The notes under the pieces are model-generated. The model ran no database searches. It saw only the letters and a program-made list of their open reading frames with translations, and was not told the origin of the DNA. A stretch of DNA of 64,000 nucleotides, from positions 1 to 64,000 of the IMG/VR virus record IMGVR_UViG_3300045012_000181, one strand, 5' to 3'. Every line of letters starts with the position of its first letter. Position 1 is the stretch's first letter. Below, one piece after another: positions 31,618 to 57,138 of the stretch. Source of the DNA: a virus. Position numbers and translations under genes: made by a program.

Positions 31618-32022
31618 CTACTTCCAATCCTTAACGTTATAGTTACCGTCCGGTATGCGCCTATCGGCGCTGTGCAATTTGCGCTGGTAAAAATAGGCCT
31701 GACATTCGCCAAAGTTGGGCGTCTGGATGGGCTCACGTTTGTACATCCAGGGGTGGCCCTCTATGGAGTCAAGGCGCGCCAAGAGGGCATCTCCGACTTC
31801 GTAGACTTCGCCTTGAACTACGTCCTCCGGGCCTTCGGCCGGGCGCAATGCCGGATAGGAGCCCAAGTGATAAAGCTGGCCGGGGAAAGTCGTCTCGCCC
31901 AAGAAGCGGGCGCTCTGCATGTTGTGTGCCAATTTTCCGCCCTTTTTTAGCGAGCCGTAGACACAGATTCTTACTCCTGTCCTTGAGGGATTGGCCAGAA
32001 ATTCGGGACTTTGTGTTTCCAT
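31618..32022 (-). CDS. gamma-glutamylcyclotransferase (GGCT/AIG2-like)
   Basis: VYGSLKKG, LYHLGSYPAL, VQGEVYEV, LDSIEG; GAGGAG RBS before ATG at 32022. Confidence 0.9.
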   Translation of the reverse strand: METQSPEFLANPSRTGVRICVYGSLKKGGKLAHNMQSARFLGETTFPGQLYHLGSYPALRPAEGPEDVVQGEVYEVGDALLARLDSIEGHPWMYKREPIQTPNFGECQAYFYQRKLHSADRRIPDGNYNVKDWK

Positions 32023-32032
32023 GTTCTCCTCT

Positions 32033-33205
32033 CTAGTCTTTGTAGGGATCTCTGATGTCCGGACCGGCCATCGCAACCCCGACCGGGACAAGTTGATGCA
32101 GAATTTTGATGCTATCACCGTGTTCGGCCAGCACCTCAGGCAGCCTTTTGTAGCAATCCGGGCTCTCGTCCAACCCGGCTCCCCGCAGTTCCACATGGGC
32201 CTTTTGGAGCCAACCGTCCATCATTTCCTTCGTGACCTTACCAGCACGCAGGACCGCACCGGTCTTCCGATGCACCTTGCCGGCGGCCTCCCGACGGCCC
32301 ATAACACGTCCGGCGCCATGCACGGTGCTATAGAGCGAATACTGGGCCTCCTCGTTCTGCACGCCCTCCAAAATTACGCTGCGTTCGCCCATCGTGCCGC
32401 CTACAAAGCCCCTCTGACCGGGAAAGGCCGGAGTGGCGCCTTTCCGTACAACCCACAGGTCCTCTCCGCCATGCGTCTCGCGCCAAGCGAAATTGTGGTG
32501 GTTGTGTACCTCTTCCAAAATCTTGGCACCTAAAATCAAGGCGACTTTCTGACAGACCCAATCCCTGCCAGCGTAGGCATACTCTCCGGCCAGCTGCATG
32601 CACTGCAAGTATTCCGCGCCCAGCGGACCCTCAACGGGTATCACACAGGGTTCCACGTCCATACCATCTTTGGCTCCGGCTTTGTTCAGAAACCAAGTTG
32701 CGGTCTTGTGACCCAGCCCTCTAGAACCGAAGTGCACGCCCACCCAGACCCTATCCTGTTCATCCGTAAACAAGTCCACATAATGGTTGCCCGAGCCTAC
32801 AGTTCCGAGCTGGTCGGATGCCATCTTCTTCAGGGGCGCGATGGCCTCACAGGACCAAGCCGGACTATCGAACAGCGCGTGGTCTACAGATTCAGCGTTC
32901 TGGCGGCCAATGCCAAAGGCAATATTTTTCCACACATCATCCATGATTTGCCTGATGCCCGCTCGAAGCGCACTCCCGGGCATATCTGTTAAAACGGCCT
33001 TGTTACCGCAGGCGATATCGAAGCCCACGCCAGACGGCGAGATGCTGGCCTTGTAGGCCACCACGCCGCCGATTGGCACGGCATACCCAAAATGCCCATC
33101 CGCCATGAGGGCGGCTTTGTCGGCCGTTCGGGCACACGTGCGGATCTGCTTCAGGGTGTTTTCATCGTGCTTGCCCCAGATGGGAATGCCTTCAACGATG
33201 TTCAC
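32033..33205 (-). CDS. rtcB: RNA-splicing/repair ligase RtcB
   Basis: DGHFGYAVPIG, VGFDIACG, GTVGSGNHY, VHFGSRG, HNHHN, VVRKGAT, HGAGR, DESPDCYK. Confidence 0.96.
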   Translation of the reverse strand: MNIVEGIPIWGKHDENTLKQIRTCARTADKAALMADGHFGYAVPIGGVVAYKASISPSGVGFDIACGNKAVLTDMPGSALRAGIRQIMDDVWKNIAFGIGRQNAESVDHALFDSPAWSCEAIAPLKKMASDQLGTVGSGNHYVDLFTDEQDRVWVGVHFGSRGLGHKTATWFLNKAGAKDGMDVEPCVIPVEGPLGAEYLQCMQLAGEYAYAGRDWVCQKVALILGAKILEEVHNHHNFAWRETHGGEDLWVVRKGATPAFPGQRGFVGGTMGERSVILEGVQNEEAQYSLYSTVHGAGRVMGRREAAGKVHRKTGAVLRAGKVTKEMMDGWLQKAHVELRGAGLDESPDCYKRLPEVLAEHGDSIKILHQLVPVGVAMAGPDIRDPYKD

Positions 33206-33960
33206 TGTTTCTCCAGCAGTTCGATATAGGTACTTAAAAGATGGTTTAGAATCAAATCTAGCCCAAAGGGCGCCTTCAGGCGCACCCGGTTGTTCACATG
33301 CGAGAAGGGCGGCGCCGTGGGCAGATTGGGAATCACATCCCAGGGGTTCTCGTACCGACGGGTAGTTGGGGCCGAGCCCAAATCATACCAGTGCGTCCAG
33401 TCGGCATCTCCAACTCGGGGACTGCCGAACGTAACGCTACTCAAATCAAAATCACTGAAAGCACTGTTTTGCGCCAAGAAGTCCAGATGGTCCACTAGGA
33501 TTGTTCCAAGTGCGCCTCCGAGACTGTGCCCCGCTACCACAACGGCATCCACCTGCTGGCTCTCCAAGAGACTGCGCACGTAATCCGCCAAGGTTACGGA
33601 TTTGGCCGCGGGGCTATTCTTGGCCAGTTGGAGGCTCTTGTAGACCTCCAAAAAGCCCGCATGCACCAGGCCATGCCCCCAAGGACACGGTACAGGAAGG
33701 GCTGTGGCGTCGTCCAGCCACTCCAGCAGCCTTCGGGGGTCCGTGCCCCTTAAGCACACGATGAGCGCTTTGTCCTGTTGGGCCAGGAATCCAAAGCTTA
33801 CCTCCAGAACATTTGGGGGCAAATCCGCTCCGCGAATCTCCTGCAGAAAATTACAGCCCAGGGTTTTGATGGCTGCGAATTGCTCAGGTCCGTATGCGCC
33901 AGGAATACCCGCTACTTGAACCAGACGGGCCAACGTCAGGTCATTGAGAGTGTTTGGCAT
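33202..33960 (-). CDS. lipase class 3 (alpha/beta hydrolase)
   Basis: LRGTD, VHAGFL, AGHSLGG nucleophile elbow, TFGSPRVG, DVIPNLP, C-terminal H. Start uncertain. Confidence 0.9.
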   Translation of the reverse strand: MPNTLNDLTLARLVQVAGIPGAYGPEQFAAIKTLGCNFLQEIRGADLPPNVLEVSFGFLAQQDKALIVCLRGTDPRRLLEWLDDATALPVPCPWGHGLVHAGFLEVYKSLQLAKNSPAAKSVTLADYVRSLLESQQVDAVVVAGHSLGGALGTILVDHLDFLAQNSAFSDFDLSSVTFGSPRVGDADWTHWYDLGSAPTTRRYENPWDVIPNLPTAPPFSHVNNRVRLKAPFGLDLILNHLLSTYIELLEKQ

Positions 33961-34755
33961 TCTTGGCATTCCTACCGGCCCCTTACGAAGGCCCTGAAGG
34001 CCCTTATGCACGTGGCCAGCCCAACGAAGGCCAGCACCCAGACCACCCCACAGGCCGTCCACAGATACCAAGGAATATAGATACCGCCAGCGTCCGACAT
34101 AAGAGCCTCCTATTGGTGGTACTTGTTGATTACGTTCTGAATGCGCTTCTTGAGGGCTTCCAGCTCAGTTGGTGATTTGGCCTCGAACAGCACCTTGCTG
34201 ACGTAGACCACGCCGTGCCTCTGAAGAAGCTGCAGAATTTCGTCCACGATTTCAACAGAGATGGCGGTCGATAATTTGTCGGATGCGCTCAAGGATGGCC
34301 CCCCGGTCGTATTCGTCCATTAAATCACCGTTGTCTCGTGTCATGGACCACTCGTTCGTATCCGCGCCCAGACCAACGATGTGCTCAGCAATTTCCTGTG
34401 CGGCCTTCTGGGAATCCGTCATGGTCGTGTATTCTTAATCAAGCAGCCCAACATATAGATTGCCATTAATCCGGCTGGCAGCAAGATTGCCGGTACGAGG
34501 CCCATTAATATACAAATATACAAATCGCCTCGCGAATCCGGCCAATAACCTTCGGAAATCCTGTAAACCGGCGCTCCAATAAGGGCCAAGAGGGTTAGTG
34601 TAATTAAGATGACGCCCAATCCCAACAGGAAACAAATCACAGATCCTCCCAATCCCCGGAACCTCCAGAATTCGCCAGCCACAACGAACCCAAAAGGGCC
34701 CAACCTCAAATGAACAGCGAGCCACAAGTGAGAATCACGAAGCCCTCGGGCATGG

Positions 34756-36002: not shown

Positions 36003-37451
36003 TCATGTTCGTACGCGCTTTCGAATGGTATCGAAGTCCTCTCGAATCAACAACTTACCGTTGCTAAAAATCTTCTGGAAGGCACAGTTGTTAAGGGCTG
36101 CGGGCAACTGTTCATCTACGACATAAAGACCATCGGCCTTGCTGCTGTAAACAGCCGGAATGCCCTTCAAGGAGGCCTTGCTAAAACCGCCTTCGGCCGT
36201 AACGGGCTTCTTGAAAATATCCAGAATTTTGCCCGAACGCCTGACCGCAGTGGCCTTCATGGCGAATCCGTAGGTATCACGGGTGACGTATTCATAGGTA
36301 TAGGAACCTATTCCGAATACGATGTTAAACGGGCTCAGGCCCATCTTCACACAGCCCTCTAGAATGGCATCCGCACGCTCCAATGAGATGCCGTCGCCGT
36401 AAATCAAACCGGCTTTGTTGATGTGTCCGGCGCCGTCCGTGCCCAGCGCCCGGCGTAGCAGCTCTAAGGCCCCATAAGCCGCAGGGTGCGTGCCATAGGG
36501 TGCGTCGGAGTCGCCCAGCATGATCTTAACAGGGTCTCCGCTGTCCGGACGGATTACAACCTTGCCGTCCCGTGCGAGGATTTCCTTGCGCAGGGCCGGA
36601 ATGTACTCCATGAGAACCTTCCAAAGGTCCCAAGTATCCGATACGATGCTAACAATTCCAGTGGGATAGGTCTCCGTTATGAGACGCCTGAAGGTCTCGA
36701 ATTCACCATCCATACCACCGGCGCACATCACAGAATGTTCAGTGGCAGGGACGCTCCCACCACAGCTCAAGGGGGCATCATAGAATTCCCTAGCGGCCAG
36801 AATCGCGGGTATGGTATCCGTGCCGTTGAAGCTCAATAGATGACCCATACCGGAGAACATGGCGTCCTCCAACCCACTCATACCCCGATAGGAGAAATCG
36901 TGGCCCTGCCAATCCACGAAACTCAGGTCCTTCTCGCCAAAATTCCGGGCGTGCTTGATGAACAGTTCCCGGAAGCGGGCTGCTGTAGTTGCGGAGGTGG
37001 TGGACTTCCAGAGCGCATTAGATAACGCGGTCTCAAGAAAATTCGGAAGCCAATAGGCGCTATCATTGGTATTGGTTATGACAAGCATGGGCACGCCCAG
37101 CGGAACACGGGAGCCCTCCGGCAAGGCCCAAATATCCAGCGGAAGGTAGCCCAGTTCCCAGAGCCTTCTTATGTGGTCCAGTTTGGGCTCTTTGAGGCCC
37201 AATGTGGCCAGCACGAATTCCCTGTATTGTTCCGCTATAAGACTCCAACTCTGTTCAAAAAATGCCGGCTTCCAGCGCATGAGATTGTTCTGGATGAAGG
37301 CCCTTGCACCGAACCAGCGCACGTCCTTCTCGCCGGGTATTCGCGAACTGCGGGCCGTCCAGTTGGACCAGACCTGTTGCGTATCGGTGGGATATTGCTC
37401 CCAATGGTGAAGCTTATAAAAATCCGCGTGGTAAAGCGGTGAAGGGTTCAT
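36003..37451 (-). CDS. nadV: nicotinamide phosphoribosyltransferase family protein (NAMPT / Namat-like)
   Basis: ADFYKLHH, HDFSYRG, GTDTIPA, PATEHSVM, SIVSDTWD, VIRPDSGDP, IYGDGI, FGIGS, TRDTYGFAMKAT. Confidence 0.93.
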   Translation of the reverse strand: MNPSPLYHADFYKLHHWEQYPTDTQQVWSNWTARSSRIPGEKDVRWFGARAFIQNNLMRWKPAFFEQSWSLIAEQYREFVLATLGLKEPKLDHIRRLWELGYLPLDIWALPEGSRVPLGVPMLVITNTNDSAYWLPNFLETALSNALWKSTTSATTAARFRELFIKHARNFGEKDLSFVDWQGHDFSYRGMSGLEDAMFSGMGHLLSFNGTDTIPAILAAREFYDAPLSCGGSVPATEHSVMCAGGMDGEFETFRRLITETYPTGIVSIVSDTWDLWKVLMEYIPALRKEILARDGKVVIRPDSGDPVKIMLGDSDAPYGTHPAAYGALELLRRALGTDGAGHINKAGLIYGDGISLERADAILEGCVKMGLSPFNIVFGIGSYTYEYVTRDTYGFAMKATAVRRSGKILDIFKKPVTAEGGFSKASLKGIPAVYSSKADGLYVVDEQLPAALNNCAFQKIFSNGKLLIREDFDTIRKRVRT

Positions 37452-37454
37452 AGA

Positions 37455-38315
37455 CTAGTCTCTCCCACAGTTGTTGCACTCGCAATCGCACTCTTCGGAT
37501 TCGGGCATCTGGATACTGTATTCCGAGGTGAAGACCTGCTTGAAGTGCTTCAGCAACACGGCCCTGCCCTTGGAGAAAATTCCATGGCTCACGTACAAAT
37601 ACAGTTTCAAGTCGGGATTGATTTTTAAGAGCGCCTTAGCCAACCCAATAAAGGTTCCGCCGCCGTCGCAGATGTCGTCTATAATGAGGGCCTTCTTGGC
37701 GCGCTCCACTTGCGGCAGGTCCTCCCACCACACACTGAAGCCGCTGAGTTTGCCCGTCTTGGCATCCCGTTGCTTTCGACAGCAGGCCGTGGGCAAGCTA
37801 TAACGCAGGATGTCATAACGCTTATCTGAGCCTTCATCCGGCAAAATCAATACGAGGTCCCTACGACCCAGTTTCCTTATGATGGGCTGAATTTGGTCGC
37901 ATTGTCTATCCGTGGGATTGAGGTTGGCCAGATTTTCAAACAAATTGTGCGCCACGCCACTGTGCACATCAAAAGTCCAAACCACGCTGAAGTTCAAATT
38001 GTTAATCAACCGGGCCCAAACACCCAGGCCATGACTATCCCCGCCCACGAATCGACGGTCCGCACGGGCATAGGGCATGTAGGGCAGGAATAGACTGGAA
38101 CGCCAGAATCCGCCGGCGTGCTCAAGGGCGTCCTTGAGTTGGGCCAGTTCTATGATATCCGGGATGGGGTTGCAGATAATCTCAAACTCGTCTTTGCCCT
38201 TCACAGCGGCCAGCCCTTTGGCCGTTAGCCGGACTTGGATTTCGCCAGCTGGATAGTGGATTACGCTGTAGAGCACGCCCCGGTCTTGGGGGATTTTGAG
38301 GGTGAGTTTTTTCAC
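37455..38315 (-). CDS. prs: ribose-phosphate pyrophosphokinase family protein (Prs / Adps-like)
   Basis: YPAGEIQVR, LPYMPYARADRR, DVHS, PDEGS, IIDDICDGGGTF. Confidence 0.92.
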   Translation of the reverse strand: MKKLTLKIPQDRGVLYSVIHYPAGEIQVRLTAKGLAAVKGKDEFEIICNPIPDIIELAQLKDALEHAGGFWRSSLFLPYMPYARADRRFVGGDSHGLGVWARLINNLNFSVVWTFDVHSGVAHNLFENLANLNPTDRQCDQIQPIIRKLGRRDLVLILPDEGSDKRYDILRYSLPTACCRKQRDAKTGKLSGFSVWWEDLPQVERAKKALIIDDICDGGGTFIGLAKALLKINPDLKLYLYVSHGIFSKGRAVLLKHFKQVFTSEYSIQMPESEECDCECNNCGRD

Positions 38316-39584: not shown

Positions 39585-39615
39585 AATAAGAGGGCCGGGT
39601 TCCGAGGCCCGGCCC
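39585..39615 (-). terminator. probable terminator after Ro60
   Basis: GGGCCGGG/CCCGGCCC stem followed by UCUUAUU. Confidence 0.45.
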
Positions 39616-39686
39616 AGTAGAGACGGCCTTCTTAGGTACTGGCGGAGACTCTTGTTTTACGCCCAGTGGGCGAATTTTCCCACGCT

Positions 39687-41081
39687 TTAGTCGCGGGAAG
39701 CCTGCTTTTCTGTAGTCTGGATGTAGTTCAGCACGGCCTCAGACCAACCATCCACGTGGGTCCATGGGCCATATCCAATGCCGTTCTTGTACGACGCGAC
39801 ATTGATAAAATAACCCTGTTTGGGCATGCCATTGTAGGATGGGTTTCGGATGGCCTGGTGGCTCTGCTCATCCGTAATCACGACGATGCGGTCGTAGGAT
39901 TCCTTCTGCGCAAGCGCCAAGGCATCATCGGTGTGCGTGGCGTTGTGCGAGGTGGCGTTCTGGATGGCATCCCTCAGAGCAAAACCCCTCCGAGCCGGCA
40001 CCAACACGGGGTTCACGGAGTAGCTGATTACGAGGGCCTCCTCACAAATCTCTCGCAAAAGAATGGCTAGCGCACAGGCCGCGTCCGAGCGGTCCATGTC
40101 GGATTTCGCGGAGATTTTGGCGCCGTACATCGAGCCACTGTTGTCCACCACGATGCAGGTCTTACCGGGGAGCTTTTCGAAGCCCTCCAGAGAGCGCAAC
40201 ATGGCCTTCTCCAGCTCGGGTTCCCACTGCGGTACATATCGAGCGGCCGCCACGAACCTGAAGGGCAGGATGCGGTCGGTTTTCATTTCCAGCAAAGAGC
40301 CCCGGATGAGCTTCTCGGAGACACCGGCCTCTTTCATGTTGCGCAAATTGCGAATAAGGGCCAGTCCACCGAGCTTGTTCTCCGTAAGGAGGCGCTCCCA
40401 AGATTCCCGTTTGGCTTCGCCCTTACCGGCAGACAACTCAACCTCCCAAGTATCAGGAGTGGCCAGCTTGCCGTCAATCAGGCGCTTCCACAGTTGGGCC
40501 TGCGGCAGACCATCGCGTTCGGCCTTGGACATTCCCACACCCCAGCCCTCAGGTCGCGGATGCACAAGGAACAACACATCCCGTAGTTTGATGGCATTAT
40601 CGCGATTCCACTTCGCAAGCTGATATTCATTAAACTTCTGAAATGCCCTTTGGAGGCCCTTTTGGAGCTGGTGGGAAAGCCTGTTGAGTTTCTTGGTTCC
40701 GGTGCGCTCCCGACTGTAGATACTTAGAATCTCGGCCAGCTCGTCCGCACGCTGGATGATGCAGGCCACCAAATCCGCAACGACGTGCCTGTGCGTCTTG
40801 TGCTTGGCGCATTCCACAGCCAACAGCAGTGGAACATGGCGCAGATGCATGCGCTCACGGGCCTCGATGGCGATTTGCGCCACGGTCTCAGCGGGGACCT
40901 TAGGTACGAGCTCGCAGATGCGGGCCGCGATAGAGACGCCGCTTTCATAGAATTCGGATTCCCATAGCAGGCAGCTCATCACGCTTCGACGCAACTCCTG
41001 CTCAGGCGTGGCGTGCTGGTAGGCCGTTGCGCCTTCGAATGTGAGCTTCTTGGGACGCAGTTCCTTTTTATTTAGGTTCAT
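39687..41081 (-). CDS. rsr: Ro60/TROVE RNA-binding protein with vWA domain
   Basis: ELRRSVMSCLLWESEFYESG, YQLAKW, LRDVLFLVHP, TPDTWEVELS, LALIRNLRN, ILPFRF, VVDNSGSM, VITDEQ, INVASYKNG. Confidence 0.95.
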   Translation of the reverse strand: MNLNKKELRPKKLTFEGATAYQHATPEQELRRSVMSCLLWESEFYESGVSIAARICELVPKVPAETVAQIAIEARERMHLRHVPLLLAVECAKHKTHRHVVADLVACIIQRADELAEILSIYSRERTGTKKLNRLSHQLQKGLQRAFQKFNEYQLAKWNRDNAIKLRDVLFLVHPRPEGWGVGMSKAERDGLPQAQLWKRLIDGKLATPDTWEVELSAGKGEAKRESWERLLTENKLGGLALIRNLRNMKEAGVSEKLIRGSLLEMKTDRILPFRFVAAARYVPQWEPELEKAMLRSLEGFEKLPGKTCIVVDNSGSMYGAKISAKSDMDRSDAACALAILLREICEEALVISYSVNPVLVPARRGFALRDAIQNATSHNATHTDDALALAQKESYDRIVVITDEQSHQAIRNPSYNGMPKQGYFINVASYKNGIGYGPWTHVDGWSEAVLNYIQTTEKQASRD

Positions 41082-41099
41082 GTGCTCTCCTTAAAAAAT

Positions 41100-41184
41100 G
41101 CCCGGGAATCAAGCGAATGCGGTTATGCCTGTTAGGGCATTCTCATTTTCAGTAAGAAGTAACCGCACTCTAACGTCACCGAGC
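41100..41184 (-). ncRNA. Y-RNA-like RNA Y1
   Basis: GCUCGG-U-GA-CGUUA-stem ... stem-GCUUGAU-UC-CCGGGC, UACUUC motif, followed by a U-tract. Confidence 0.7.
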
Positions 41185-41430
41185 CCTTACACGGTCTGGA
41201 ATATGCAACTGCAATAGCTTCACAACCTCTACAAGTTCGTAGTCACTAGTATGTGGGTAGTGTCCATGGCCGATGTCGCGAACGTATTCCACGGAGCGCA
41301 TCTGCGCCATTGTGGGATTGCGTTTTAACAGGTCCGTCAATGACAACTCTCTAACGTGTTCAGCTATACCGTAAACAAAATCTGTTTCGTTAGCCTCTCT
41401 GCCGCGCTTTACATACTCCTGAGGTGTCAC
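41176..41430 (-). CDS. hypothetical protein within the Y RNA cluster
   Basis: GGAGG RBS, natural composition. Confidence 0.55.
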   Translation of the reverse strand: MTPQEYVKRGREANETDFVYGIAEHVRELSLTDLLKRNPTMAQMRSVEYVRDIGHGHYPHTSDYELVEVVKLLQLHIPDRVRAR

Positions 41431-41446
41431 CGGGCCTCCAAAAATA

Positions 41447-41548
41447 CACGGGCATCAGGCGAACTCAGAAATTGTGGGGTTTGAACCCACCACCGGCCCT
41501 TGCGGGCCAGTTCTTGACCAGAAGTATCTGAAGTTCTACGGCACCGTG
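41447..41548 (-). ncRNA. Y-RNA-like RNA Y2 with T-arm-like hairpin
   Basis: CACGG-U-GC-CGUA ... GCCUGAU-GC-CCGUG, AUACUUC, GUGGG-UUCAAAC-CCCAC, GCAA-capped stem. Confidence 0.78.
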
Positions 41549-41561
41549 TTCAAAATTAAAG

Positions 41562-41645
41562 CCGGAAGGGCAGCGACGTTTCTACGGCATTGGAGGATAC
41601 CACCTATTCGATGGTAGACGTTATTCACCCGCGCCACCCATCCGG
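41562..41645 (-). ncRNA. atypical structured RNA X in the Y RNA cluster
   Basis: CCGGA/UCCGG and GGGUGGCG/CGCUGCCC closing stems, internal UGCCGUAGA, U-rich 3' end. Confidence 0.5.
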
Positions 41646-41669
41646 TTGGTACTTTGTTGCAACAAAAAT

Positions 41670-41803
41670 CGAGGAGCATCAGACGATTGGGGTGTCTTTT
41701 TGACAGGCGCTCTCCCAACTGAGCTACGGTCTTGCGACCGACGGGGCTCGAACCCGCGACATCCTGTTTTACATGAAGTATCCCGCAATCTACGGCATCC
41801 TCG
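41670..41803 (-). ncRNA. yrlA: YrlA-type Y RNA (tRNA mimic) Y3
   Basis: Bulged terminal stem plus permuted tRNA-like domain: T arm GCGGG-UUCGAGC-CCCGU, acceptor-like CGGUC-GCAA-GACCG, D arm UAGCUCAGUUGGGAGAGC, ACAGG/CCUGU connector. Confidence 0.88.
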
Positions 41804-41814
41804 TTGAACTCAAA

Positions 41815-41880
41815 GGTGGCGCAACAGGCACCCAAGGAGTTTTCATCCATTAGAAGTATCCATGGGTTACGGCAGCCACC
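41815..41880 (-). ncRNA. minimal Y-RNA-like RNA Y4 (66 nt)
   Basis: GGUGGC-U-GC-CGUA-ACCCAUGG-AUACUUC ... UUGGGU-GCCUGUU-GC-GCCACC. Confidence 0.75.
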
Positions 41881-41923
41881 CGGAGCGTAGCTCCGTTAAA
41901 ACCATCCGTCGCATAAAAATCAT

Positions 41924-42025
41924 GGGCACAACGTCTCCCGATTAGTGCTCTCCCGCTTCGGAGCTGTCGGATGCGCCCTGCGGGCTGTGTTCTTTGACGC
42001 AGCCAACGACCTGTAGTACGGCCCC
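41924..42025 (-). ncRNA. degenerate YrlA-like RNA Y5
   Basis: GGGGC-CGUA ... GUUGU-GCCC, D-arm-like AGCUCCGAAGCGGGAGAGC, T-arm-like hairpin, followed by a U-tract. Confidence 0.55.
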
Positions 42026-42039
42026 GGTCGCCTCGGAAT

Positions 42040-42330
42040 TTAACGCTGCACAACGACTTGCGAGGCCTTCTGAGTTTCCAGGGCCTTACGAATCTCAGTG
42101 CTCATATACTGCAGGGCCTTGGCTTCGGCCTCAAACTTAGCGGCCTTGACTTCAGAGGCCTGTTGGTCAGCGGTGCGTTGCTCGGCCAGTTTCTCGCGTT
42201 GCAACTCCACATTCAGGGCGTGTTCGGCCCGACGCATGACATTGCCGTGCAACGTACAGACCATGCTGGCCAGCGCAATGCTCGCTGTCATTCCAAATGC
42301 GCCCAGCATAATACAAGGTGTTATGTCCAT
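42040..42330 (-). CDS. membrane-anchored coiled-coil protein
   Basis: GAGGAG RBS before ATG at 42330; TM helix then heptads. Confidence 0.6.
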   Translation of the reverse strand: MDITPCIMLGAFGMTASIALASMVCTLHGNVMRRAEHALNVELQREKLAEQRTADQQASEVKAAKFEAEAKALQYMSTEIRKALETQKASQVVVQR

Positions 42331-42433
42331 GGTTTTCTCCTCAAAATCGAGCGCCTTTTGGTTCTCTGTTCTACATATCAACCCGGCCCGGCGCTTAACA
42401 GGCGCTTTCGGACGCTCTACCAACTCAAAATCA

Positions 42434-42520
42434 ACGCAGGGCATCAATCGTCTGGAGCGGTGCCTCCTTGACGGAGGCGCTTCTTAACGGGAAGTAGCTC
42501 CAGGCATACGGCACCTGCGC
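42434..42520 (-). ncRNA. Y-RNA-like RNA Y6
   Basis: GCGCAGG-U-GC-CGUA-...-CUACUUC ... GAUUGAU-GC-CCUGCGU, followed by a U-tract. Confidence 0.75.
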
Positions 42521-42643
42521 TTTAGAATCAAAATTTGTTCCAGAACCAAGTCAAGGCACGCCTCACCAGCGTATAGAGGCCCCAGAGTGCCAGCAGTAGC
42601 AAGCCCGTGCAGAAACCAAGGGCTTTCACGCCTTCCTGAGACA

Positions 42644-43054
42644 TTAGTGCTTCACCGGACTGGGAACCGTATTCGCGGAGATGTCAAAGAGCACTTCATC
42701 CACTACGTATTCCCTGCCCCCGGGGCAAAGGGCCTTGGTCGCGGTCACCACAACATCCGGGCTGAGAATGGCCGCTTTTCGAATAACAGTGCATTGCAGC
42801 AGCCCAAGTGGGGGATTGTCCGAGCCTTTCAGGCGGCCCATGCCCAACGTTGGCGTCATGAGGGGCTTGAAGTATGCGTGCCCTTCGCGTTCGCGCTCCA
42901 TATTGAACCAAACTTTCCCGATAACAATTTCCTGGCCGGGGAAGTCCAGCACCTGTCCAACACGCCATTGTCCTCCTAGAGGCGCATCAGCACACAAGAT
43001 GGCGCTGCCGGTTAACAAGAGGGCCCCAGTCCAAAGTGCTCGCAGGTTGTGCAT
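42644..43054 (-). CDS. exported hypothetical protein
   Basis: Signal-peptide-like N-terminus. Confidence 0.55.
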   Translation of the reverse strand: MHNLRALWTGALLLTGSAILCADAPLGGQWRVGQVLDFPGQEIVIGKVWFNMEREREGHAYFKPLMTPTLGMGRLKGSDNPPLGLLQCTVIRKAAILSPDVVVTATKALCPGGREYVVDEVLFDISANTVPSPVKH

Positions 43055-55671: not shown

Positions 55672-57138
55672 GTGAAACTACCTGACGACCCCAAGCTGGC
55701 CTCGGCCATTCTCGACAGTATGGAGAAGAAGCGCCGGGATGAACGCTTTATATCCTACTGGCAGCCCTTCCCCTACCAAAAGAAGGCCTTTGACAAATTC
55801 CGTCCCGGTATCAAGATTCTAGTAGTGGCTGGTGGTAACCGTTCGGGCAAGACCGAGGTGGGCGCCGCCCTGACAATGGCCTTCGCCGAGGGCAAGGAGT
55901 ACTTCCGTGGCGATCCTGCATGGGATTGGGTCAAGGACCTGCCCATCCCAGACAAGCCCCGCCGAAATATCTGGATAGTCGGACTGGACTTCAAACTCCT
56001 CAAGGATGTCATCTGGCGGGAGAAGCTCCTGTCCGGGGCCAACCATCCGGGTTTCTTGCCCAAAGACGACTCCGTTGTCAATGTCCTCGAACGGGACATG
56101 CAAATCGAGTTTACAGACAATACAGCCATCACGGCCAAATCGGCGGATTCCGGTCGAGAGAAGTTTCAGAGCGCCTCGGTTGACCTCATTTGGATAGATG
56201 AGGAGTGCGATGCGGAAATTTTTGATGAATGCTATCAACGCACTGTTGATTGTGGTGGGGTCATTATTGTTACTGTCACACCTCTTATTGACATCAATAG
56301 CGGCGTCAAGACACCGTGGATCTACAACCTCTGGGAGGATATGAAGAATGGCCGGAAAGATATTGCCTTCGTCAACCTCTCAGTCCTCGATAATCCAATC
56401 GTCCCAGAAGCCGAAAAACAGAAACTCCTCGACAAGTGGAAGGGCCATCCGGAAGAGCGGGCCCGTCTTTTCGGTGAGTTCGTCCGACGCGCTGGACTCG
56501 TTTATCCTAACTTCGACCGGAAGGTGCATCTCAAGCGCACCAACCCACCTCCCGATTGGTATACTATCGTTAGCATTGATCCAGCGGCAACTGGACCGAC
56601 GGCTGCGCTGTGGGGACGTGTGGACCCCTCCGGCAACATCCACCTCTATAGAGAATACCTAGAGGCTGATTTACCCGTCTCCGAGCATGTGGCCAACATC
56701 AAGCTTAAGAACCGTGGTGACAAAGTCGACCTCTGGCTACTGGACCCCACATGGGGCTCTCAGCGAACGGCCGAGGCCCACAAAACGGGCCAGCAGCTTT
56801 ATAGAGATGCCGGATTGCCTGTAAGATTGGCCTGTGTAGATAGAGATTTTGGCCGATTAAATCTCTGGGAATATCTTCAGGGTACTGTTTTAGGTCCCGA
56901 GGGCCGGCAGCCCAAACTCTGGATTGACCCCTCTTTGCATGAATTCGTAGAAGAGATAGAACACTACATAGTGGATAGTTACCATTCCGGCCCGCTCAAG
57001 GGTCTGTCTAAGGATAGGCCTCGTAAGCGGGCCGACGATTTGATTAATGCCGCACAGTATATGGCGGCACAAAAGCCCCGGGGCCGTCTAAGAAGCGATC
57101 CCGATCAGGCCCCGCCTTCTGGTGGGAGTTATTTCTAA
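55672..57138 (+). CDS. terL: terminase large subunit
   Basis: Walker A GGNRSGKT, Walker B DLIWIDEE, TVTP coupling motif, RNase-H-like IDPAATG and DDLINAAQY. Confidence 0.95.
   Translation: MKLPDDPKLASAILDSMEKKRRDERFISYWQPFPYQKKAFDKFRPGIKILVVAGGNRSGKTEVGAALTMAFAEGKEYFRGDPAWDWVKDLPIPDKPRRNIWIVGLDFKLLKDVIWREKLLSGANHPGFLPKDDSVVNVLERDMQIEFTDNTAITAKSADSGREKFQSASVDLIWIDEECDAEIFDECYQRTVDCGGVIIVTVTPLIDINSGVKTPWIYNLWEDMKNGRKDIAFVNLSVLDNPIVPEAEKQKLLDKWKGHPEERARLFGEFVRRAGLVYPNFDRKVHLKRTNPPPDWYTIVSIDPAATGPTAALWGRVDPSGNIHLYREYLEADLPVSEHVANIKLKNRGDKVDLWLLDPTWGSQRTAEAHKTGQQLYRDAGLPVRLACVDRDFGRLNLWEYLQGTVLGPEGRQPKLWIDPSLHEFVEEIEHYIVDSYHSGPLKGLSKDRPRKRADDLINAAQYMAAQKPRGRLRSDPDQAPPSGGSYF

What the first reader, a model, noticed from the sequence alone, without database searches (positions are those of the whole stretch)
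41100..42520. Array of six Y-RNA-like genes upstream of a phage Ro60
Seen: six minus-strand RNAs (41100-184, 41447-548, 41670-803, 41815-880, 41924-42025, 42434-520). They share a terminal stem of different sequence but the same core: stem-U-GC-CGUA-stem on the 5' side and stem-GNYUGAU-GC-stem on the 3' side. Five have UACUUC 9-10 nt after the CGUA motif, and most end in U-tracts. Stems covary between copies, which supports structure. Payload domains differ: full permuted tRNA mimic (Y3), T-arm only (Y2), degenerate mimic (Y5), simple hairpins (Y1, Y6), minimal (Y4). Established: Ro60 binds a bulged Y RNA stem, YrlA RNAs mimic tRNA, and bacteria usually have one or a few. Inference: a modular set of Ro60 adaptors, each tethering or decoying a different partner such as nucleases, PNPase or anticodon nucleases.
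Basis: partly seen in the sequence, partly recalled or inferred. Interest (0 to 1): 0.8.

Follow-up and report, generated by a model that had tools for sequence, protein, structure and literature searches.

The report
Five Y RNAs beside phage Ro60
An uncultured soil phage carries five small folded RNA genes in front of its Ro60 gene, all built on one docking stem with different heads; this is a real but common and largely unannotated branch of the known Ro60/Y RNA partnership.

Summary
Five of the six proposed RNAs are real. They are Y1 41100-41184, Y2 41446-41549, Y3 41670-41803, Y4 41815-41880 and Y6 42435-42519, all on the minus strand. 'Y5' (41924-42025) fails every test.

The five share one scaffold: terminal stem, bulged U, 2 bp, an internal loop (CGUA opposite GNYUGAU), an 8-bp second stem, then UACUUC. 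A covariance model built from 16 short units finds only these five in the 125.6-kb phage genome. It also finds 206 units in 77 viral Ro60 loci and 179 in 47 bacterial Ro60 loci, mostly Acidobacteriota, all on the Ro60 strand. It also finds 8 in Caulobacter phage CcrColossus and 5 in Xanthomonas phage MET23-P3. Pairing covaries strongly (94% paired; 16 of 16 pairs change on both sides).

The 5' motif is a variant of the published Ro60-binding motif GNCGAAN0-1G. tRNA-like units score 33-52 bits on Rfam YrlA, below its cut-off of 69.

So this is a divergent branch of the YrlA/Y RNA family. Arrays of 2-8 units are normal in this clade, so five is not exceptional. This scan has already reported such arrays in at least 15 other genomes.

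Binding to Ro60, expression and payload function are inferred, not shown. One recurrent payload class looks like an anticodon stem-loop; Y1 carries the loop CUGAAAA.

The parts
39687..41081 (-). Ro60 (Rsr-like) gene, 464 aa, TROVE ring plus vWA domain. The RBS AAGGAG follows directly after Y1's U-tract.
   Evidence: Pfam TROVE 1.1e-18, VWA_2 and vWA_Ro60 just below their cut-offs. phrog_850 'RNA-binding protein' 1e-49 over residues 4-455. Closest solved structure is Thermus phage phiLo Ro60, 9KOP/9L5Y, E 7.5e-22.
41100..41184 (-). Y1, 85 nt. Scaffold with a GA:UC pair in place of GC:GC, and CGUU. Payload is a hairpin with the 7-nt loop CUGAAAA plus a second hairpin. It ends 18 nt before the Ro60 start codon, and its first bases overlap the stop codon of ORF 41176-41430.
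   Evidence: R1 63.2 bits, E 1e-15. Fold z -3.8. Loop analysis.
41176..41430 (-). Possible 84-aa ORF (GTG start, GGAGG RBS) between Y2 and Y1. Coding status uncertain.
   Evidence: No Pfam or PHROG hit. No tblastn hit in 166 related loci. Weak codon score.
41446..41549 (-). Y2, 104 nt. Scaffold plus a GNRA-capped hairpin and a T-arm (5-bp stem, loop UUCAAAC).
   Evidence: R1 38.9 bits, E 1e-8, not in the seed. Fold z -3.4.
41552..41668 (-). Spacer 'Y2b'. It holds an orphan copy of the 5' motif (UGCCGUAGAA, 41583-41592) with no 3' partner. Probably a relic of a duplicated unit; moderately structured.
   Evidence: GCCGTA hit at 41583-41588. No R1 match. Fold z -2.2.
41670..41803 (-). Y3, 134 nt. 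Scaffold plus a YrlA-type permuted tRNA mimic at 41705-41765: T-arm, acceptor-like hairpin, D-arm.
   Evidence: R1 45.9 bits, E 1e-10, not in the seed. Rfam YrlA 33 bits, E 7.7e-5, model positions 23-85, below the cut-off of 69. Fold.
41815..41880 (-). Y4, 66 nt. Minimal unit: scaffold plus a short UACUUC...GAAAA loop.
   Evidence: R1 66 bits, E 2e-16. Fold z -3.2.
41924..42025 (-). It is ordinary hairpins after the ORF stop, ending in a U-tract. It could be a decayed unit or a terminator.
   Evidence: No R1 match with filters off at E <= 10. Fold z -0.2. No similar sequence in related loci.
42040..42330 (-). 96-aa ORF with a strong RBS (GAGGAG) and an N-terminal hydrophobic segment. It interrupts the array.
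   Evidence: ORF list. Translation and codon score 0.25. No family hit.
42338..42432 (-). Spacer 'Y6b', not a family member. It holds a D-arm-like stretch (AGUUGGUAGAGCG) and a GCGC-CUGUUAA-GCGC hairpin.
   Evidence: No R1 match. Fold z +0.5. 13-14-nt matches to D-arms of tRNA-like units elsewhere. No tRNA called.
42435..42519 (-). Y6, 85 nt. Scaffold plus a hairpin with the 7-nt loop CCGUUAA and a second GC-rich hairpin. It starts right after the stop of a 38-aa ORF (42528-42644).
   Evidence: R1 54.7 bits, E 4e-13. Fold z -4.1. Loop analysis.
32033..33205 (-). RtcB RNA ligase on the same strand, about 6.5 kb downstream of Ro60. Given as context, not shown to be part of the system.
   Evidence: Pfam RtcB 8.8e-64. 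phrog_1075 2.8e-67.

Best explanation
Five genes for small structured RNAs of the bacterial/phage Y RNA kind, a divergent branch of YrlA/YrlB, lie in front of the phage's Ro60 gene. Each RNA has two modules. The constant module is a terminal stem, a bulged U, 2 bp, an asymmetric internal loop (YG-W-A opposite G-N-Y-U-G-W-U), an 8-bp stem and UACUUC. It is most likely the docking site for the phage Ro60 ring. The variable module is displayed at the tip. It is a YrlA-type tRNA body mimic in Y3, a T-arm in Y2, anticodon-arm-like hairpins in Y1 and Y6, and almost nothing in Y4. The units are probably transcribed together with the small ORFs and Ro60 as one precursor and then cut out at the A/U-rich spacers. 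On the published Y RNA model, each RNA would then gate Ro60 or tether it to a different partner that recognises tRNA-like shapes. What is shown: the RNA family, its fold, its strict linkage to Ro60, and its kinship to YrlA. What is inferred: Ro60 binding, processing, and what the payloads do.
For: Scaffold and fold. Only five copies exist in the genome, clustered on one strand. Family evidence: R1 finds 29 units in the window plus six relatives and 206 units in 77 IMG/VR Ro60 loci. It finds 14 in three of four cultured phages tested, including 8 in CcrColossus and 5 in MET23-P3. It finds 179 in 47 bacterial Ro60 loci, mostly Acidobacteriota. Every hit is on the Ro60 strand. Covariation on the MAFFT seed alignment: 91.8% paired against 63% shuffled and 39-52% with slid partners, and 17 of 19 pairs change on both sides. 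On 112 units: 94.3% paired, 16 of 16 pairs covary, and G-U pairs fix the strand. Invariant positions are the bulged U, G11, UACUUC and G180. Ro60 is the only conserved neighbour. The 5' motif GGYGWAG includes the published Rsr-binding motif GNCGAAN0-1G (Chen 2014, PMC4201824); one relative has it exactly (L003). Mutating CGAA weakens binding to phage phiLo Ro60 three- to four-fold (PMC12135203). tRNA-like units align full-length to Rfam YrlA at 37-52 bits. Co-transcription is suggested by three things. Units sit only about 10 nt apart in relatives. No sigma-70-like promoter lies on the minus strand in the array. RBSs follow directly after Y1, Y2 and the spacer before ORF96.
Against: There is no expression or binding data for this phage. 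Nothing here reaches Rfam's YrlA cut-off. The window's motif is GCCGUA, not GNCGAA, with U at the fifth position. Y4 at 66 nt is shorter than the 80-130 nt given for characterised Y RNAs. The U-tracts and the position next to RBSs also fit cis-acting leader or terminator roles. The 112-unit alignment was fitted to the model, so its pair counts lean towards the structure; the MAFFT seed alignment does not have that bias.
Confidence: 0.75

Rival explanations
1. The units act mainly in cis. They would be leader or attenuator structures and leaky intrinsic terminators that set expression of Ro60 and the small ORFs. Y1 could be an operator that Ro60 binds to repress its own translation. They would not be free trans-acting Y RNAs.
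For: Every unit in the window is followed by a U-rich tail. Y1 ends 18 nt before the Ro60 start, with the RBS straight after its U-tract. In at least 10 related loci whose match starts at residue 1, the last unit ends 11-21 nt before the Ro60 start. RBSs also follow Y2 and the spacer before ORF96.
Against: Most units are followed by another unit, not by a gene. Only 35 of 112 units have a U4 tract within 10 nt. Elaborate payloads such as tRNA mimics are not needed for attenuation. In some loci the units lie downstream of Ro60 (L068, L079, L087). The two roles do not exclude each other; the Ro60-proximal unit could do both.
Confidence: 0.15
2. The region is a decayed tRNA gene cluster or a set of tRNA-derived repeats with no functional link to Ro60.
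For: Y3 and Y2 carry T- and D-arm-like elements. The spacer at 42338-42432 has D-arm-like and anticodon-arm-like pieces. One CcrColossus unit is annotated as tRNA-Gln in RefSeq.
Against: ARAGORN finds no tRNA in the window, the whole phage or the CcrColossus array. The T-AS-D order is permuted. Most units (about 60 of 112) have no tRNA-like part. The conserved part is the non-tRNA scaffold, and it is strictly linked to Ro60 in more than 120 loci.
Confidence: 0.03
3. The repeats work at the DNA level, for example as protein-binding iterons or recombination sites.
For: They are tandem, similarly sized repeats with a conserved core.
Against: The stems keep pairing through compensatory changes while their sequences differ. 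Frequent G-U pairs would be A-C mismatches on the other strand. All 400-odd hits have the orientation of Ro60.
Confidence: 0.01

Closest known systems
YrlA and YrlB, bacterial and phage Y RNAs bound by Rsr/Ro60 (Rfam RF02553; Chen et al. 2014, PMC4201824; YrlA structure in bioRxiv 10.1101/312249)
   Same: They are encoded within a few kb of Ro60 on the same strand. The 5' and 3' ends pair into a stem that carries a GNCGAA-type motif. The design is modular, with a docking stem plus an effector module. Y3 has the permuted T-arm, acceptor-like hairpin and D-arm of YrlA. Y2 has only a T-arm, as described for YrlB and D. radiodurans Yrn1. Several Y RNAs occur per locus.
   Different: Scores are below Rfam's cut-off: 33 bits here and 37-52 for relatives, against 69. 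The scaffold has its own invariant signature of a bulged U, UACUUC after an 8-bp second stem, and a G-N-U-U-G-U-U 3' strand. The window uses GCCGUA and UGAU. Most units are minimal (59-71 nt) and have no tRNA-like part. Copy number is 5 here and up to 8 in relatives, against 2 described for Salmonella and at least 2 for M. smegmatis.
Thermus phage phiLo Ro60 with Yrl1 and Yrl2 (PMC12135203; PDB 9KOP, 9L5Y)
   Same: A phage-encoded Ro60, the closest solved structure (E 7.5e-22), with Y RNA-like genes upstream. Binding depends on the CGAA motif. The host PNPase is recruited in vitro.
   Different: phiLo has two RNAs, found by motif and folding. No shared UACUUC scaffold or tRNA-like payload is reported. 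The proteins share only distant sequence similarity.
Vertebrate Y RNAs (Rfam RF00019) with Ro60
   Same: A terminal stem with a single bulged pyrimidine. Conserved 5' strand (GGUCCGA) and 3' strand (UUGAC) resemble GG-YG-WA and YUGWU here (resemblance from my own knowledge). A U-rich 3' end. Two to four paralogues per genome with different loops.
   Different: No Rfam match even at E <= 10. Vertebrate Y RNAs are separate Pol III genes, not an array inside an operon. They have no tRNA-like modules.
The same unannotated arrays in cultured phages and bacteria: Caulobacter phage CcrColossus, Xanthomonas phage MET23-P3, Granulicella mallensis
   Same: The same R1 scaffold sits directly upstream of a 46-57% identical Ro60: 8, 5 and 5 units respectively.
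   Different: In CcrColossus most units carry full tRNA-like payloads; here only one of five does. According to PMC12135203, Chen 2014 reported a Y RNA-like RNA in CcrColossus. I found no description of the whole array.

Membership tests
Bacterial/phage Y RNA (YrlA/YrlB class, Chen et al. 2014) | Encoded within about 4 kb of a Ro60 (TROVE) gene, on the same strand | tested here: met
   The five units lie 18-1438 nt upstream of Ro60 on the minus strand. All 400-odd family hits share the strand of Ro60.
Bacterial/phage Y RNA (YrlA/YrlB class, Chen et al. 2014) | 5' and 3' ends pair into a stem that carries the motif GNCGAAN0-1G on the 5' strand | tested here: inconclusive
   The stem is present and covaries. 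In the window the motif is GCCGUA(G) or GACGUU, with U instead of A at the fifth position. The family consensus GGYGWAG includes the exact motif in about a quarter of units (C at position 10 in 51%, A at position 13 in 47%), for example L003 GUCGAAG.
Bacterial/phage Y RNA (YrlA/YrlB class, Chen et al. 2014) | Bound by Ro60/Rsr in vivo or in vitro | not testable with these tools
   Needs RIP or EMSA. Ro60 is the only conserved neighbour, which is indirect support only.
YrlA (Rfam RF02553) | Reaches the family's gathering score (69 bits) | tested here: not met
   No gathering-level hit in the window. Y3 scores 33 bits over model positions 23-85. Related tRNA-like units score 37-52 bits full-length. 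The same model also gives sub-threshold hits in 9 of 14 control genomes.
YrlA (Rfam RF02553) | tRNA-like domain with a T-arm, an acceptor-like hairpin and a D-arm, in that order | tested here: met
   Met by Y3 only: 41705-41765 aligns to the T, AS and D elements and folds that way. Y1, Y2, Y4 and Y6 lack it.
Vertebrate Y RNA (Rfam RF00019) | Match to the covariance model | tested here: not met
   No hit at E <= 10 in 40900-42800.
tRNA genes | Cloverleaf recognised by a tRNA finder | tested here: not met
   ARAGORN finds none in the window or in the whole 125.6-kb genome.

The most novel reading that the evidence does not exclude
The array is a panel of tRNA-part mimics displayed on Ro60. Y3 copies the tRNA body, Y2 the T-arm, and Y1 and Y6 the anticodon arm. 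Y1's loop is CUGAAAA, the shape of a Phe-GAA anticodon loop. Y6's is CCGUUAA, close to the CUGUUAA of Asn-GUU. Across 443 distinct units from phages and bacteria, 89 have a hairpin built on the invariant CUUC with a loop of exactly 7 nt, against about 16 expected. Of these 89, 64 follow pyrimidine-U-NNN-purine, with 25 different central triplets. Such a panel could decoy or sense host anticodon nucleases or other tRNA-directed enzymes during infection. It might work with the phage's RtcB ligase. Hughes et al. 2020 (PMC7790460) already suggested competitive inhibition of an anticodon nuclease for YrlA.
Probability: 0.2. Interest if true: 0.8.

Novelty: new variant of a known kind. Interest (0 to 1): 0.5.

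Why it matters
Ro60 and Y RNAs are conserved from bacteria to humans, yet the job of the bacterial tRNA-like Y RNAs is still open. This locus belongs to a large, unannotated branch of the family. In that branch one docking handle is reused 2-8 times per locus with different heads, in phages and in soil Acidobacteriota. That gives many natural 'swap' experiments and a clear sequence signature to mutate: the bulged U, G11 and UACUUC. It also gives cultured systems in which to test what the heads recruit: CcrColossus in Caulobacter, MET23-P3 in Xanthomonas, and Granulicella mallensis. Here the array sits in a phage alongside RtcB and an NAD+ salvage gene pair, which fits a role in countering host attacks on RNA, though nothing here shows it. 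For annotation, the covariance model would label hundreds of empty 'gaps' next to TROVE genes. It would also correct at least one likely mis-called tRNA.

Tried and rejected
- **Rfam at gathering thresholds, whole window:** nothing.
- **ARAGORN:** no tRNA or tmRNA.
- **blastn of 39600-42700 against 50,697 phage records:** no match.
- **Sigma-70 promoter scan of the array:** no minus-strand site. Only Y1's end met the simple terminator rule.
- **Y5, 'Y2b' (41552-41668) and 'Y6b' (42338-42432) as extra units:** rejected. No R1 match with filters off at E <= 10, and no unusual folding for Y5 and Y6b. I considered a second class with a UCCGA motif (inner Y5, Y6b) and dropped it for lack of any homologue.
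- **Conserved partner proteins:** the two small ORFs inside the array, RtcB, NAMPT, Prs, DUF5317 and other neighbours gave no tblastn hit within 3 kb of Ro60 in 90 phage loci, apart from one GGACT hit. RtcB lies upstream in 5 of 80 bacterial loci.
- **Codon-usage scoring of ORF84 and ORF96:** not discriminating. A control ORF that overlaps the RNAs scored about the same.
- **Literature:** the Annual Review on bacterial Ro60 (PMC10870794) is not held. The supplements of Chen 2014 are not held. So I could not check how many units they listed for CcrColossus.
- **Not run:** protein structure and complex predictions, because they would not bear on an RNA claim.
Full report
**What is in the window.** The window is the first 64 kb of a 125.6-kb single-contig IMG/VR virus record. 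It has a large terminase gene at 55672-57138. ORF 39687-41081 (minus strand) is a Ro60/Rsr-type protein. It matches TROVE at 1.1e-18, carries a vWA domain, and matches phrog_850 at 1e-49 over its full length. Its nearest solved relative is Thermus phage phiLo Ro60, 9KOP/9L5Y.

**The observation.** On the minus strand upstream of Ro60, five stretches share one plan.
- The 5' side reads: terminal stem of 5-7 bp, a bulged U, 2 bp (GC:GC, or GA:UC in Y1), CGUA (CGUU in Y1), then a second stem, with UACUUC starting 9-10 nt after CGUA.
- The 3' side reads: G-N-Y-U-G-A-U (UGUU in Y4), then the closing strands and a U-rich tail.
- Unconstrained folds return this architecture for all five, with z-scores from -1.4 to -4.1.
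- A deliberately loose descriptor finds these five and nothing else in 125.6 kb. Shuffled genomes give about two scattered hits.

**Relatives.**
- Six IMG/VR contigs encode a 48-56% identical Ro60, and all have the same unit in tandem just upstream.
- A MAFFT alignment of 16 short units (A1) supports the structure. It shows 91.8% of cells paired, against 63% after shuffling and 39-52% with slid partners. Seventeen of 19 pairs change on both sides.
- The covariance model R1 recovers Y2 and Y3, which were not in the seed, at E of 1e-8 and 1e-10. It finds only the five units in the whole genome.
Y5 folds no better than shuffled sequence (z -0.2). So five of the six units stand.

**How widespread it is.**
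- An alignment-based scan found 255 viral contigs with a Ro60 relative. R1 gives 206 hits in 77 of the fetched loci, every one on the Ro60 strand. Most lie within 600 nt upstream; a few lie downstream.
- Among four cultured phages tested, CcrColossus has 8 units in an unannotated 1.4-kb gap and Xanthomonas phage MET23-P3 has 5. A crAss-like phage has 1 and Ralstonia phage RsoM2USA has none.
- The closest cellular Ro60 proteins (55-59% identity) are almost all in Acidobacteriota (Terriglobia), including Granulicella mallensis. In 47 such bacterial loci, R1 finds 179 units, again all on the Ro60 strand.
- A rough regex count, which overcounts by about one, puts the usual array at 2-4 units in phages and 3-5 in these bacteria, with up to 8.
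- Five units is therefore on the high side but not exceptional. This scan has already reported similar arrays in at least 15 other genomes.

**The family's signature.**
- On 112 units (A4), 94.3% of cells pair and all 16 pairs covary. This alignment was fitted to the model, so A1 is the cleaner test.
- Invariant or nearly invariant positions are the bulged U, G11, A14, UACUUC, G180 and the UUGUU stretch.
- The window's lineage uses GC:GC and UGAU, which are minority variants.
- Flanks are A/U-rich on both sides. Only 35 of 112 units have a U4 tract, so the U-tracts seen here are a local feature.

**Relation to known Y RNAs.**
- Chen et al. 2014 defined GNCGAAN0-1G on the 5' strand as the likely Rsr-binding motif. 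They found YrlA near Ro60, on the same strand, in 254 bacteria and 22 phages (PMC4201824). The family consensus GGYGWAG includes that motif. The window has GCCGUA.
- In phage phiLo, mutating each CGAA base weakens Ro60 binding three- to four-fold (PMC12135203).
- tRNA-like units of relatives align full-length to Rfam YrlA at 37-52 bits. Y3 aligns at 33 bits over the T, AS and D part. All are below the cut-off of 69.
- The YrlA consensus ends (ggCgaAUGCuu ... AcUuGucGcc) resemble R1's ends.
- I therefore read this as a divergent branch of YrlA/YrlB, not a separate invention.

**Payloads.**
- Across 112 units, lengths cluster at 59-71 nt (minimal, about 60 units) and at 126-138 nt (tRNA-like, 17 units). 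Intermediates carry a hairpin plus a capped hairpin, or a hairpin plus a T-arm. The window has one of each main class.
- In 443 distinct units, 89 form a hairpin on the invariant CUUC with a loop of exactly 7 nt, against about 16 in shuffles. Other loop sizes sit much closer to their shuffle expectations. Of the 89, 64 follow pyrimidine-U-NNN-purine, with 25 different central triplets.
- Y1 (CUGAAAA) fits this pattern. Y6 (CCGUUAA) fits except for a C at the second position.
- This is the signature of an anticodon loop, but it is a resemblance only, not a demonstrated mimicry.

**Organisation and mechanism.**
- No minus-strand promoter-like site lies in the array. In relatives the units are only about 10 nt apart.
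- Here, RBSs follow directly after Y1 (Ro60), Y2 (ORF84) and the spacer before ORF96. Y1 ends 18 nt before the Ro60 start. The last unit ends 11-21 nt before the Ro60 start in at least ten relatives whose match begins at residue 1.
- I infer co-transcription followed by processing. Ro60 might also regulate its own translation through the proximal unit.
- Ro60 is the only conserved neighbour. The invariant scaffold positions are therefore best explained as Ro60 contacts.
- RtcB lies on the same strand about 6.5 kb downstream of Ro60 (32033-33205). NAMPT-like and PRPP-synthetase-like genes lie between them. RtcB is also near Ro60 in 5 of 80 bacterial loci. This echoes the known rsr-yrlBA-rtcBA operon (PMC7790460).

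**Limits.**
- I have no expression or binding data.
- Literature coverage is partial. I found no paper describing these arrays, but the key review and the supplements of Chen 2014 were not available.

Noticed in passing
window 42338-42432 (-): The spacer between Y6 and ORF96 holds a D-arm-like stretch (AGUUGGUAGAGCG) that matches the D-arms of tRNA-like units in several relatives. It also holds a GCGC-CUGUUAA-GCGC hairpin whose loop equals an Asn-GUU anticodon loop. It is neither a tRNA nor an R1 unit, and may be a decayed tRNA-like payload.
   Followed up: partly
window 41583-41592 (-): An orphan copy of the 5' scaffold motif (UGCCGUAGAA, identical to the start of Y2) with no 3' partner. It looks like a relic of a unit duplication.
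   Followed up: partly
L094:2124-2288 (Caulobacter phage CcrColossus NC_019406, record 109217-109284): The RefSeq 'tRNA-Gln' feature lies inside an R1 unit, starting 4 nt after the unit's 5' end. ARAGORN does not call a tRNA there. It is probably a Y RNA payload mis-annotated as a tRNA.
   Followed up: partly
window 41082-41099 and related loci L012, L013, L019, L036, L038, L043, L063, L064, L088: The Ro60-proximal unit ends 11-21 nt before the Ro60 start codon, so the RBS sits right at the foot of the docking stem. This suggests possible translational autoregulation.
   Followed up: partly
L097-L176 (genome contigs): The closest cellular Ro60 proteins (55-59% identity) are almost all from Acidobacteriota/Terriglobia soil MAGs and carry the same RNA arrays. 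This hints that the phage's host, or the cassette's source, is an acidobacterium.
   Followed up: partly
window 36003-38315 (-): A NAMPT-like gene (phrog_448, 4e-155) and a PRPP-synthetase-like gene (phrog_619, 1e-62) lie back to back just downstream of Ro60. This is a phage NAD+ salvage pair of the kind described as counter-defence.
   Followed up: no
whole genome G000 (125.6 kb): The phage has no tRNA gene, even though it carries RtcB, Ro60 and tRNA-like Y RNAs.
   Followed up: yes
window 42528-42644 (-) and 42040-42330 (-): Two small ORFs with hydrophobic N-terminal segments (38 and 96 aa) flank or interrupt the array. They have no homologues near Ro60 in 166 related loci.
   Followed up: partly
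window 31618-34071 (-): A class-3 lipase-like gene (33202-34071) and a GGACT/AIG2-like gene (31618-32196) flank RtcB.
   Followed up: no
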